The notes under the pieces were generated by a model that saw nothing but the letters and a program-made list of their open reading frames with translations, had not been told where the DNA came from and ran no database searches. A stretch of DNA of 64,000 bases from Paramecium tetraurelia (taxonomy: Eukaryota), in assembly GCA_000165425.1 (NCBI GenBank), contig CT868141.1, positions 248,001 through 312,000 of the forward strand. Direction: 5' to 3'. Made by a program: the position numbers and the translations under genes. Below, one piece after another: positions 48,750 through 52,215 of the stretch (position 1 is the stretch's first letter; each line of letters opens with the position of its first letter).

Positions 48750-50629
48750 ATGGATTAAGAAATAAACCATTTCAATCTGCCTGATATAAGAGATAATGAT
48801 GATTCCGATGATCAAGAAGATTATAATCCATTTATCTATCATCACTAATAAGAAGGCTATCATTCATTTGAAAAAATATTTTAGAATCATTTTGATGTTG
48901 TAAATAATAGATGGATTACAATTCCAAGAACTAAAATCTATTTGCTGAGATCAGCTATGCACAAAATGAAAAAATGGTTGCTTTACTTAAGACAAGAGCA
49001 TCACATGATTTAATCTATTGTTAAATAAAATGATGATCTAAGGACTCAATTAAAGAAGAACCAAGAACAATATTCTAGTCATTATCTTGTTGAATAACAG
49101 AGAACAAATCAAGTATTCTAAATAAATTATTACTAAGTTGTATGAGGAAATTAGGAAGGCGAGATAAGACTTAAAAGATAAAGTTATGTAAATGAATGAT
49201 CAAATCTAATAACTTAAAGATACGATTGCAGAAAAGGATAAAAAGATTTAAAGACAGGAATTAACTATACAAAGATTAAATGAAGTGAGCAATGGGTATG
49301 AAAATCAAAACAAAGGTTTGCAACAACAAATAAACAATCTCTAGAAGGATTTTACATATTTTAACAATATTAAAAAGTAAGGCTTCATTGATGAGAAGGC
49401 ATTAATTGGAGGGAGTTTGACAACTTTTGAGTTGGTTTTGGCATCAAAAGTGAAAAGTAAGATTTTATAGTTCCTGTCCCTAAAGGATTATCAAAGTCTA
49501 ATGATTTGTAATCGCAAACTCTATCTTTCCTTAATATCGCATAATACAATTATTCCACATGCAGTAAATTCCCTCAGTAACAAATTTAATCATTAGTACA
49601 AACTATTGCAAAGTGTAAATGAGGAATTCAAAGTATTCAAATTAAAAACATCATATAATAGAGTGTTATCAAATAGAGTGATGATCCAAAACTAAGAGAA
49701 ATCATGATAAAGTAGTATGAATTAAAGGTTAATTTCTCTGAATATATCATCCCTACTTTACGTGAATGCCAATCTTTAATAGATGGTGACAACTTTATAG
49801 GGTTGAAGAATAATTAGCACAATAGAGATTGTAAAATATGCATATCATTTAATTTAGTGATGGATCTATTGGAGGGCTATTTAACTCAATAAGCATCAAG
49901 TTATTAGGCAGCATTATAGAGTTTGGTCTAGGAGAAATTCCCTTGGAATCAATTCTTTCCCAAACCCTAAACTACTATCTAATAGGTTCAATTATAGAGA
50001 AAATAATTTCCAACTTCTTCGCAGATGTTTGCCCAATAAATCATCACTAGATTGTATGATCTCAGTACAGTGTGTGCTCAAGATTCTTCGATATTTGGGA
50101 TGTTTCTATCATAATTATAGCGTTGTTTAGCCTCATTATTTGTTTATGGATAACACTTGTCTCAGGAAGTCAATGATTTATAGTCACTCAATTACTATAT
50201 AATGACCAAATTCTTCTTTTTGTTGAAGGAAAAGAAATAAATTGAGGATCAATATGAAGATTTTAAGACTTAATTGGGACTCTACTAAGATGCGAAAAGA
50301 TTCTTAAAGTATTTTATATAGTAATTTATTAATATAGTGAGAAGGTGAAAGATTTAGAAAAGATTATCTCAGATAAAAATGAAAAAATCAGCGGGTTAAA
50401 TCAATAACTCTATATGAAGGAGAGTTAATTGAAATAGAACCAAATTATGGTCTAAAAAAACAATGAATCACTTCGTTTGTATTAGGATAAACTTAAAATT
50501 CTGGCCAGAGAAATTATGGAAGTCAGAAGGAAATATAAAAATACATGTGTGGAATACAATGAAATAGTGTCGAGGTTTAATTTGTTAAAAATTTAATTAG
50601 AGAAAATGGAGAAGCAGTAAAAAAATTGA
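48750..50629 (+). CDS. Coiled-coil hypothetical protein with a possible F-box-like segment
   Basis: MDQEINHFNLPDIRDNDDSDDQE.. is followed by long heptad-rich stretches. LASKVKSKILQFLSLKDYQSLMICNRKLY (about 49435-49530) resembles an F-box. Several tiny introns. Confidence 0.6.
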
Positions 50630-50673
50630 GTATAAAAATTATATTAAAAAAAGTATCCTTTATTTAAAATAAA

Positions 50674-51465
50674 ATGTCTTCTTCAAGTTCGTCGAGGTCA
50701 CGATCACCAAAGAAGAATAAGAAAAGAGTATATGTTACAGGATATTCTCTTAAAGAGGATTAACATGACATTAAAAAACTATTCAAAAAATTTGGAAAAA
50801 TCGAAGAATTTGCTTGGAAAGGGAAATATTGTTTCATTGTACATATGATGACTTAATTGTAGGAATTCAAAGACTCTGAAGATGCAGAAAAAGCTGTTAA
50901 AAAAATGAATAAGGAAGAAGTAAAAGGATCAGTGTTATAGGTCGAGATGGCTCGTGGTAATAAGCCGAGCAAAAATAACGGCCTATGCTATTCATGCGGT
51001 CGCTCTGGACATTTGTAAGTTTCACTATAGCATCCATTTCTTTATATATAGAATACGATTTATTTATATTTTAGTCATTTACCATTTTATTAGCGCTAAA
51101 AACTGTAGACATAGATCATCATCTTCCAGTTCATCTAGCTCTAGTAGGTAACGAATTAGACATAAAAATTTAGTGAGTCTAGAAAAAAACACAAGAAGAA
51201 ACATAAAAAAAAGAAGAGCTCATCCAGTTCGGATTCCTCATCAAGTAGTTCATCAAGCAGAAAGAAAAAGAATAAGAAGAAGAGTACAAAAAGGAAATCA
51301 AAGTCCTCTTCAAGAGGCTCTTCAAAAGACTCATAACATTCAGAGTCTTCTGCCGGCTCGTACTTTTAAAGTTGAATTCTGTTTAGCATTAATGACGAAA
51401 AAAAAGAAGAAAAAAACCCTATTGAAGAAGAGAATCAAGGGAATCAAGGAGATGGTAAGTAATGA
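50674..51465 (+). CDS. SR-type splicing factor (RRM + CCHC zinc knuckle + Ser/Arg/Lys-rich tail; SRSF7/RSZ-like); introns 50839-50862, 51015-51093, 51148-51173, 51360-51386
   Basis: RRM RVYVTG..LFKKFGKIEEF..KYCFI|EFKDSEDAEKAVKKMN..LQVEMARG. The knuckle CYSCGRSGHF|AKNC is restored only by removing 51015-51093. An S/R/K-rich tail follows. Confidence 0.87.
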
Positions 51466-52215
51466 AGTACCCGTGATGTTATAAATAAATTTGGTGTCCA
51501 ATAATATTCTTATTATTAATAAATATTATCAATAATTATTTTAATTCATTAATTTACTTAATTAAGTTGAATTTATTTCATAAAACTATTTCATAATATT
51601 CCAATACTGAGTAATAAAAGACTAAACACATTATCAAGTCAATTATTGAGAATTCAGTATTAAGTGAAAATAAGCTCAAGTTAATGCTTAGGACTTCTCA
51701 AATTTATACTTTTTGTTTCATATAGGAATAAAACATTAAAAGCGAATTTCGATACATATGCACTTTGGATATGATAGTTCTTGAAAACAATATCTAATTT
51801 AAAGTAAGAAGATGGTATATTTAAATTAAAGTCTCACTTATCGAATAATAAGATCCAAAAAAATTGTCTATTGGAAATACTATACTCCATATTCTTATGC
51901 TCTTTAATTAACTCCTACATTTTTGAAAGATATCTATCAATTAAAGTATGTTCCAATATGCTGACTGAAGATTATTCTAAAATTTTTAATTACTTTTTTG
52001 TAAATCTCTAAAAGTAAATAGAATAATTTTAACAAGAGAATTCTAATTTTGAAACGAAACTTCAGCCAAAATTGTTAGGAATTAAATAGTTATTCATAAT
52101 TCATTTATTTCATATCTTATTAGTTGATATGAATTGTTCCATTATTGAAATTTAATATATTAATTTATTGTTTATAAAATGCCTAATACATACAATATAT
52201 GATAATAATGTATAA

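What the first reader, a model, noticed from the sequence alone, without database searches (positions are those of the whole stretch)
51015..51093. Oversized 79-nt intron with competing splice sites inside an SR protein's zinc knuckle: candidate splicing/NMD autoregulatory switch
Seen: the other introns I could resolve in the window are about 22-31 nt, but the knuckle CYSCGRSGHF|AKNC is intact only if 79 nt (gtaagt..ttattag) are removed. The intron holds internal TAG acceptors ending at 51030, 51051 and 51074, and an internal 20-nt GT..AG unit (51074-51093). Acceptors 51030 or 51051 keep the frame but insert 21 or 14 aa between the knuckle's His and last Cys. Full retention, acceptor 51074, or a 22-nt micro-exon (51052-51073) all shift into one frame that meets TGA at 51174, upstream of the last intron. 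Established: animal SRSF3/SRSF7 and plant RSZ-type genes autoregulate through unproductive splicing coupled to NMD, and Paramecium has NMD but little regulated alternative splicing. Inference: this is a ciliate tiny-intron version of that feedback loop.
Basis: partly seen in the sequence, partly recalled or inferred. Interest (0 to 1): 0.75.

Follow-up and report, generated by a model that had tools for sequence, protein, structure and literature searches.

The report
Oversized intron in Paramecium SR-like gene
A real 79-base intron, three times the usual Paramecium size, splits the zinc knuckle of a splicing-factor gene that has already been published as controlled by unproductive splicing and mRNA decay, so the idea is largely known.

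Summary
The gene at 50674-51465 (+) encodes a 211-aa protein with an RRM, a CCHC knuckle and a Ser/Lys tail. The knuckle exists only if 51015-51093 (79 nt, GT..AG) is removed. Stranded poly(A) RNA reads show exactly that junction: 11 and 7 joint reads plus 7 and 6 matching loose ends. No internal acceptor was seen. Sense-strand reads inside the intron reach about 4-10% of exon depth.

The window is Paramecium tetraurelia GSPATT00009396001. This is gene "B4" of the 11 SRSF-like genes that Saudemont et al. 2017 report as each carrying one very weak, NMD-sensitive intron conserved within its clade. The feedback idea is therefore already in print for this gene. I could not read which intron they flagged, and one remark of theirs argues against intron 2.

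New here: the oversize is conserved. Paralogues read as 57 nt and at least 65 nt at this site. A distant metagenomic orthologue has 103 nt at the same codon and phase. No snoRNA signal was found. Autoregulation by the protein itself remains untested.

The parts
50674..51465 (+). Coding region of the SR-like gene (P. tetraurelia GSPATT00009396001, 'B4'): five exons, 211 codons plus TGA
   Evidence: Model and translation. The old model rebuilt from the window equals P0001 in 279 of 279 residues. Identifiers. Stranded RNA depth covers about 50650-51500.
50674..50838 (+). Exon 1: Ser-rich N-terminus and first half of the RRM
   Evidence: Pfam RRM_1, E 1.8e-08, on window:50674-51014.
50839..50862 (+). 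Intron 1, 24 nt, a multiple of three with no TGA (translatable if retained)
   Evidence: Loose ends at 50839 in the RNA reads.
50863..51014 (+). Exon 2: rest of the RRM and the knuckle up to Cys-X2-Cys-X4-His-(Ph
51015..51093 (+). Intron 2, 79 nt, phase 2, GTAAGT..TTATTAG, 21.5% G+C: the oversized intron
   Evidence: Joint 51014->51094 'skips 79 GT..AG' in X21 (11 reads), X22 (7 reads) and one X4 contig. Present uninterrupted in a DNA-like contig of X2.
51028..51030 (+). Internal TAG (would make a 16-nt intron, +21 aa in frame); no use seen
51049..51051 (+). Internal TAG (37-nt intron, +14 aa in frame); no use seen. The old model of paralogue B3 ends its predicted small intron immediately before the counterpart of 51052
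51074..51093 (+). Internal 20-nt GT..AG unit. The 2006 gene model removed only this piece, which gave the frame-shifted 279-aa database protein
   Evidence: No read support listed.
51094..51147 (+). Exon 3, 54 nt: last Cys of the knuckle and a Ser run
51148..51173 (+). Intron 3, 26 nt
   Evidence: Loose ends at 51171.
51174..51176 (+). TGA reached by every frame-shifted intron-2 variant (premature stop at codon 131-151)
51174..51359 (+). Exon 4: Ser/Lys-rich tail
51360..51386 (+). Intron 4, 27 nt, with an in-frame TGA at 51373-51375 if retained: a rival candidate for the published NMD-sensitive intron
   Evidence: Spliced loose ends at 51359 and 51387.
51387..51465 (+). Exon 5 and stop codon

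Best explanation
Intron 2 is a genuine spliceosomal intron about three times the length that the Paramecium tiny-intron machinery normally handles. It has been kept oversized at one codon of the zinc knuckle over long evolutionary time. The productive mRNA needs its exact removal. Because of its length it is removed less efficiently than ordinary introns. Transcripts that keep it are frame-shifted (79 = 3n+1), stop at 51174, lack the last knuckle cysteine and the Ser/Lys tail, and are predicted substrates of nonsense-mediated decay. This is most likely the physical basis, or one basis, of the unproductive-splicing control already published for this gene (B4) and its paralogues. Shown: the intron, its junction, sense-strand retention reads, the premature stop, conservation of the oversize, and the gene's presence in the published set. 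Inferred: that intron 2 is the published weak intron, that length causes the weakness, and that the encoded protein feeds back on it.
For: Junction 51014->51094 is the only joint listed in two stranded poly(A) RNA runs (11 and 7 reads, plus 7 and 6 loose ends reading into exon 3) and in one contig of a third run. The wholly intronic bin 51034-51064 has depth 3.06 and 5.81 on the mRNA strand and 0 on the other, against 56-95 in exon 2. These are therefore RNA and not DNA, at roughly 4-10% of exon depth, with paralogue reads inflating the denominator. Saudemont 2017 give a mean splice-variation rate of 3% and a median of 1% in wild type, and state that rates fall with expression (supplement Text S1 and abstract). 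The gene is B4 in their Fig. S4 legend, and every one of the 11 genes has an intron with 23-76% IR/ASSV in NMD-deficient cells, conserved within the clade. Oversize conserved: the paralogue B2 model reads 57 intron bases in frame; the B3 model translates 47 intron bases and removes a further intron-sized piece; the distant orthologue L001 (67 of 115 residues identical) has 103 nt at the same codon and phase beside a 31-nt intron 1. In P. bursaria, introns outside 23-26 nt are spliced less efficiently (passage).
Against: Saudemont et al. used the 2006 reference annotation, which excluded introns over 45 nt and mis-models intron 2 in B2, B3 and B4. [quoted passage not shown] Taken literally, the flagged intron of B4 is not intron 2. 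The 57-nt intron inferred for B2 is a multiple of three without a stop, so its retention would be invisible to NMD. Intron 4 also gives a premature TGA on retention. I could not measure retention of introns 1, 3 and 4 for comparison. Only 31 spliced reads were available, no NMD-deficient sample was compared, and no test of feedback by the protein was possible.
Confidence: 0.55

Rival explanations
1. Intron 2 is simply a long, constitutively spliced intron with somewhat noisy removal and no regulatory role. The published NMD-sensitive intron of this gene is another one, most plausibly intron 4 (27 nt, in-frame TGA on retention).
For: The authors remark that annotation errors did not touch the 12 AS-NMD introns, together with the mis-annotation of intron 2 in the reference models. 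B2's inferred 3n stopless intron 2. Intron 4 retention gives TGA at 51373. The intron-2 splice sites themselves look strong, GTAAGT and TTATTAG. Only the canonical junction is seen.
Against: An oversized intron (57-103 nt) persists at the same codon in three paralogues and a distant orthologue although interior sequence similarity is gone. Only 0.76% of the species' introns exceed 40 nt. Retention of about 4-10% of exon depth in a highly expressed gene is above the reported median of 1%.
Confidence: 0.33
2. One reading: internal acceptors (51030, 51051, 51074) and the 20-nt unit compete with the outer sites, and the choice among them is the switch.
For: The sites exist. Old gene predictors chose the 20-nt unit in B4 and a small internal intron ending immediately before the counterpart of 51052 in B3. 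L001 also has an internal TAG 20 nt before its acceptor, against 19 nt in the window. Internal TAGs number 3 against 0.62 in shuffles.
Against: 0 of 31 spliced reads at the donor use an internal acceptor, and no other joint or deletion is listed at a 1% share setting. TAG enrichment vanishes against the window-wide density, and the 20-nt unit is expected in 44% of shuffles. Exon skipping and cassette exons are reported absent in Paramecium (passages). The aligner did not report short skips as joints, so rare use is not excluded.
Confidence: 0.07
3. The intron is long because it hosts a small RNA, as do the handful of ~80-nt snoRNA-bearing introns described in P. tetraurelia.
For: The size matches the ~80-nt class mentioned by Arnaiz 2017 (passage).
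Against: No Rfam match lies in the intron at E<=1 (0 of 3 weak hits lie in 51015-51093), and there are 0 hits in L001. Fold z-scores are -0.82 and -0.69. By reading the two introns I saw no C box or D box motifs. There is no conserved interior sequence between the window and L001.
Confidence: 0.03
4. The 79 bases are an unexcised germline segment (IES) or an assembly artefact rather than an intron.
For: Nothing specific. IES retention variants exist in Paramecium (passage).
Against: RNA reads remove exactly a GT..AG segment. By my reading of the sequence, no TA-bounded deletion restores the knuckle frame. The segment is present in contigs of an independent DNA-like run with no differences over 50993-51104.
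Confidence: 0.01

Closest known systems
NMD-sensitive weak introns of P. tetraurelia SRSF-like genes, clade B (Saudemont et al. 2017, Genome Biol 18:208, Suppl. Text S2 and Fig. S4)
   Same: It is the same gene: B4 = GSPATG00009396001, with paralogues B3 and B2 = P0005 and P0007. Same logic: a poorly spliced intron in a highly expressed splicing-factor gene, with variants removed by NMD.
   Different: The text and legend I could read do not say which intron, give no intron lengths, and do not mention the zinc knuckle. A remark on annotation errors suggests it may not be intron 2. They infer regulation from NMD sensitivity and do not show feedback by the protein.
Animal SR genes (SRSF3, SRSF7 and others) with poison exons and ultraconserved elements (Lareau 2007 and Ni 2007, as cited)
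   Same: A splicing-factor gene, an unproductive isoform with a premature stop, and a conserved non-coding element inside the gene. The best solved-structure sequence match is SRSF3, and SRSF7 is also matched.
   Different: Here there is no cassette exon and no conserved intron sequence; only length and position are conserved. The unproductive form is plain intron retention. The tail is Ser/Lys-rich, not Arg/Ser-rich. Details of the animal poison exons are recalled, not checked here.
Plant SR subfamilies with a long alternatively spliced intron (Kalyna et al. 2006, NAR 34:4395; start of abstract only)
   Same: SR genes marked by one unusually long intron that is the site of alternative splicing.
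   Different: Per the abstract fragment, the plant intron lies in the first RRM, not in a knuckle. The plant events use alternative sites, whereas only retention is seen here.
~80-nt snoRNA-hosting introns of P. tetraurelia (mentioned in Arnaiz et al. 2017)
   Same: Same unusual size class in the same genome.
   Different: No snoRNA boxes, no Rfam match and no stable fold.

Membership tests
SR protein of the RRM + zinc-knuckle type (animal SRSF7/9G8, plant RSZ) | N-terminal RNA recognition motif | tested here: met
   Pfam RRM_1, E 1.8e-08, on the window's own exon 1-2 read-through, and 1.2e-12 to 3.1e-12 on the five P. aurelia-complex proteins scanned (P0001, P0002, P0003, P0006, P0007).
SR protein of the RRM + zinc-knuckle type (animal SRSF7/9G8, plant RSZ) | One CCHC knuckle (C-X2-C-X4-H-X4-C) after the RRM | tested here: met
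   The pattern is present in the spliced model. Pfam zf-CCHC scores 24.7 and 24.6 bits (cut-off 20.8) in P0002 and P0003 at residues 96-112, 19.6 bits (below cut-off) in P0006, and is absent from the mis-spliced models P0001 and P0007. The window's spliced protein itself could not be submitted to Pfam.
SR protein of the RRM + zinc-knuckle type (animal SRSF7/9G8, plant RSZ) | C-terminal RS domain of at least 50 residues with over 40% Arg-Ser content (criterion recalled from the SR nomenclature, not checked in a paper here) | tested here: not met
   The 101-residue tail has 37 Ser, 23 Lys and only 6 Arg, with 1 RS and 3 SR dipeptides. It is an SR-like, Ser/Lys-rich protein.
SR protein of the RRM + zinc-knuckle type (animal SRSF7/9G8, plant RSZ) | Closest characterised relatives are SR proteins | tested here: met
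   Of 49 solved-structure sequences at E<=0.001, the best are SRSF3 (2.4e-09), SRSF6 (2.5e-08) and SRSF1 (7.4e-07), and SRSF7 scores 3.1e-04. Other RRM proteins score in between. One source names a fragment homologue 'arginine/serine-rich splicing factor 7'.
Splicing-factor gene under unproductive splicing coupled to NMD (AS-NMD) | A non-productive isoform exists in RNA | tested here: met
   Sense-strand-only reads across the intron interior in two poly(A) runs.
Splicing-factor gene under unproductive splicing coupled to NMD (AS-NMD) | That isoform carries a premature stop | tested here: met
   TGA at 51174-51176, codon 151 of the retained form against 212 in the productive one.
Splicing-factor gene under unproductive splicing coupled to NMD (AS-NMD) | The isoform accumulates when NMD is disabled | not tested
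   This is published for one intron of this gene, but the figure that says which intron is not readable. I had no identified NMD-deficient run to lay.
Splicing-factor gene under unproductive splicing coupled to NMD (AS-NMD) | Isoform ratio responds to the level of the encoded protein (autoregulation) | not testable with these tools
   This needs over-expression or silencing experiments.
Splicing-factor gene under unproductive splicing coupled to NMD (AS-NMD) | The regulatory element is conserved | tested here: met
   Position, phase and oversize are conserved in B2 and B3 (inferred from mis-annotated proteins) and in L001 (direct DNA, 103 nt). Interior sequence is not conserved.
snoRNA-hosting intron | C/D or H/ACA boxes, family match, stable fold | tested here: not met
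   and reading of the sequence.

The most novel reading that the evidence does not exclude
The oversize itself is the selected feature. In a lineage whose spliceosome is tuned to ~25-nt introns, an intron kept at 57-103 nt at one codon of the zinc knuckle, from the P. aurelia complex to a distant ciliate, would serve as a length-handicapped sensor. Its excision would depend on the dose of the SR-like protein it interrupts. That would be a tiny-intron counterpart of poison exons, needing no conserved sequence and no alternative splice site.
Probability: 0.35. Interest if true: 0.5.

Novelty: already known. Interest (0 to 1): 0.3.

Why it matters
Homeostatic control of SR proteins by unproductive splicing is ancient, and it was already extended to Paramecium for this very gene. 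What is left is modest but testable. If the regulated step is the excision of a deliberately over-long intron, Paramecium would show how such feedback can be built with intron length alone, in a genome without exon skipping and with 25-nt introns. It is also a practical warning: the GenBank and UniProt models of three paralogues (279, 268 and 238 aa) are mis-spliced because the 2006 annotation forbade introns over 45 nt.

Tried and rejected
1. No whole genome is held for the window, so paralogue DNA could not be read. Paralogue introns were inferred only from mis-annotated database proteins.
2. The run index listed no holder on record as RNA. I laid two raw RNA runs found by species label instead.
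3. X4 contigs also show unspliced pieces over intron 2 (depths 18-45 beside the spliced contig at 70.7) and over intron 4. The run's nature and condition are unknown and large parts of the gene have no laid contig, so I use X4 only as a third sighting of the junction.
4. Retention at introns 1, 3 and 4 could not be measured.
5. The numbers in Fig. S4 of Saudemont 2017 are not in the held text. The bioRxiv version adds nothing. A full-text search for five gene identifiers found 0 papers.
6. The first metagenome scan gave 0 relatives from 240 stretches. Genome contigs gave 0 from 19 and viral contigs 0 from 223. Earlier-findings look-ups returned nothing.
7. The fourth paralogue B1 was found in neither length class.
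8. The window/L001 intron alignment shows no trustworthy interior similarity.
9. and one search were one base out of frame and were redone.
10. Supplementary tables of the P. bursaria paper, which may list splicing-factor introns, were not opened.

Full report
**What is there.** The + strand between 50674 and 51465 carries a five-exon gene read with the ciliate code.
- Exons: 50674-50838, 50863-51014, 51094-51147, 51174-51359 and 51387-51465.
- Introns: 24, 79, 26 and 27 nt.
- Product: 211 residues, with a Ser-rich start, an RRM (Pfam RRM_1, E 1.8e-08 on the window's own exon 1-2 read-through), one CCHC knuckle and a 101-residue tail.
- The tail has 37 Ser and 23 Lys but only 6 Arg and four RS/SR dipeptides.
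- The knuckle is split after the second base of the Phe codon that follows the His. It exists only when 51015-51093 is removed.
- In correctly spliced orthologues with the same residues 96-112, Pfam zf-CCHC passes its cut-off (24.7 and 24.6 bits against 20.8). It is absent from the two mis-spliced database models scanned.

**The observation.**
- The intron is 79 nt and runs GTAAGT..TTATTAG.
- Internal TAGs end at 51030, 51051 and 51074, and a 20-nt GT..AG unit spans 51074-51093.
- There are two in-frame insertion variants (+21 aa and +14 aa). Three frame-shifted variants all stop at TGA 51174-51176.

What is unusual is the length.
- Arnaiz et al. 2017 (passages) state that about 98% of P. tetraurelia introns are 20-30 nt, with a mean of 25.
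- Only 720 of 94,711 introns in the v2 annotation exceed 40 nt.
- The 2006 annotation deliberately excluded introns over 45 nt.

The internal sites are not clearly more than chance.
- There are three internal TAGs against 0.62 in 20,000 composition-preserving shuffles (P=0.013), but 1.25 are expected from the window-wide TAG density.
- An internal GT 18-35 nt before the acceptor occurs in 44% of shuffles.

**RNA evidence.** I laid two stranded poly(A) RNA runs of raw 58-nt reads (X21, X22) and two contig sets (X2, X4) on 50600-51520.
- The only joint listed, at a 1% share setting, is 51014->51094, 'skips 79, GT..AG'.
- It is seen in 11 reads (X21), 7 reads (X22) and one X4 contig.
- Loose ends behind 51014 (7 and 6 reads) read into exon 3 with agreement 1.0.
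- So 31 of 31 spliced reads at this donor use the outer acceptor. Internal acceptors, if used, are below roughly a tenth.
- Caveat: the aligner did not report the 24-27-nt introns as joints (they appear as loose ends), so short internal skips could be under-reported.
- The wholly intronic bin 51034-51064 has mean depth 3.06 and 5.81 in the orientation of the mRNA and 0 in the other. Exon 2 has 56-95. These reads are sense RNA and not DNA, at about 4-10% of exon depth.
- Reads of a close paralogue cross-map on the exons. Evidence: mixed letters at 14 places, and a loose end at 50839 that spells the paralogue's Pro-Gln version of exon 2. The share for this gene alone is therefore probably higher.
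- X2 looks like DNA (contigs up to 33.8 kb, introns uninterrupted). It holds the 79 bases with no difference over 50993-51104, so the segment is not an assembly artefact.

**Identity, and what is already published.**
- Rebuilding the old gene model from the window (introns 1, 3 and 4, plus only the 20-nt unit 51074-51093) gives a protein identical in 279 of 279 residues to P0001.
- P0001 is CAK73048 / XP_001440445, GSPATT00009396001 of Paramecium tetraurelia.
- Two paralogues, P0005 and P0007, are GSPATT00019872001 and GSPATT00001514001.

Saudemont et al. 2017 searched P. tetraurelia for SRSF homologues. I read passages of the main text, Supplementary Text S1-S3 and the Fig. S4 legend.
- They found 11 genes in four clades.
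- These variants are strongly NMD-sensitive and conserved among paralogues of a clade.
- Their legend lists B2 = ...1514001, B3 = ...19872001 and B4 = ...9396001.

The window's gene is therefore B4.

**What remains open is which intron.** The figure's numbers are not in the held text.

Against intron 2:
- The authors used the 2006 reference annotation (39,642 genes, 90,287 introns). Its models of B2, B3 and B4 are wrong exactly at intron 2.
- Intron 4 would also give a premature TGA (51373) if retained.

For intron 2:
- Retention of about 4-10% or more, in apparently NMD-competent cells and in a highly expressed gene, is well above their reported median of 1%.
- That is the kind of value that would rise into their 23-76% range without NMD.

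**Conservation, which is new here.** The mis-spliced database proteins translate parts of their own introns.
- B2 reads 20 residues between the knuckle's His and the Ala that follows its Phe where the spliced protein has one. These are colinear with three frames of the window's intron, which implies a 57-nt intron (3n, no stop).
- B3 translates 4 + 43 intron bases and removes a further predicted small intron, which implies at least about 65 nt.
- A second metagenome scan, seeded with more divergent homologues, returned one locus from 405 pattern matches.
- L001 encodes an orthologue with 67 of 115 residues identical over the RRM and knuckle. Its intron 1 (31 nt) lies at the same site as the window's.
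- Its knuckle intron is 103 nt, at the same codon and phase (CAT TT | C GCN).
- A neighbouring open frame on the contig has two in-frame TAA codons and ends at TGA, which fits a ciliate.
- Retention in L001 also shifts the frame to a downstream TGA.
- Interior sequence is not alignable between the two introns. Position, phase and oversize are what is kept.
- One further species' gene call (P0014, on 21 contigs) stops right after Gly-His-Leu, which implies a TGA at the start of its intron.

**Rivals.**
- *snoRNA host.* This is suggested by the '~80 nt introns contain snoRNAs' remark. It is not supported. There is no Rfam match in the intron or anywhere in L001. Fold z-scores are -0.82 and -0.69. 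I saw no box motifs on reading the sequences.
- *IES or artefact.* This is excluded by the RNA junction and the DNA contigs.
- *Competing internal sites.* This has no read support.
- *Neutral long intron, switch elsewhere.* This is the serious rival, for the reasons given above. B2's NMD-invisible 57-nt intron adds to it.

**Most likely mechanism.** Intron 2 is a conserved, length-handicapped intron. Efficient removal gives the functional knuckle protein. Failure gives a frame-shifted, prematurely terminated mRNA that NMD removes. This contributes to the published AS-NMD control of clade-B genes (confidence 0.55).
- Feedback by the protein itself is inferred from other eukaryotes (Lareau 2007 and Ni 2007, as cited). 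It has not been shown in Paramecium, by me or in the text I read.
A Tetrahymena study is titled as showing EJC-independent NMD (listing only), so the rule should not be relied on here.

**Family placement.** The protein works like, and is built like, an SRSF7/RSZ-type factor (RRM plus one knuckle). Its best solved relatives by sequence are SRSF3, SRSF6 and SRSF1, with SRSF7 also matched. It fails the formal RS-domain criterion, which I recall rather than checked here, because the tail is Ser/Lys-rich. 'SR-like' is the accurate label.

**Verdict.** The residual novelty is the conserved oversize of the knuckle intron.

Noticed in passing
window 50674-51700; database proteins P0001, P0005, P0007: The GenBank/UniProt models of three paralogues (279, 268 and 238 aa) are mis-spliced at the knuckle intron. 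Two are frame-shifted through the true stop and one carries a 19-aa insertion. The 2006 annotation excluded introns over 45 nt. Newer annotations of sister species give 211-219 aa with an intact knuckle.
   Followed up: yes
window 50839-50862: Intron 1 is 24 nt, a multiple of three with no TGA. It is a 'translatable' intron of the class reported to be counter-selected in Paramecium; retention would add 8 residues inside the RRM.
   Followed up: partly
window 51015-51173: Introns 2 and 3 together are 105 nt. A transcript keeping both returns to frame and reaches the normal stop (246 aa), so double retention would escape NMD. Retaining intron 3 alone meets no TGA before 51608, beyond where RNA depth ends.
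   Followed up: partly
window 50802-51490 (table 3): Fourteen positions show mixed letters in the RNA runs. Eight of them are fixed differences in the DNA-like run X2, which suggests strain differences. Others, together with loose ends at 50839 and 51254, look like cross-mapping reads of paralogue B3, including one inside intron 2 (51023 C>A).
   Followed up: partly
L001 991-1012: The 103-nt intron of the distant orthologue holds a near-tandem duplicate of a 10-nt pyrimidine-rich word just before an internal TAG at 1016, 20 nt upstream of the acceptor used in my model. The window has an internal TAG 19 nt upstream of its acceptor.
   Followed up: no
P0014: A gene call from another Paramecium-like assembly (21 contigs) ends right after Gly-His-Leu. 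This implies a TGA as the first full codon of its knuckle intron, so retention there would stop immediately.
   Followed up: no
L001 1-171 and 238-555: The metagenome contig also carries the end of an acidic ORF with two in-frame TAA codons ending at TGA (+ strand), and a 105-aa ORF on the minus strand. This fits a gene-dense ciliate macronuclear fragment.
   Followed up: partly
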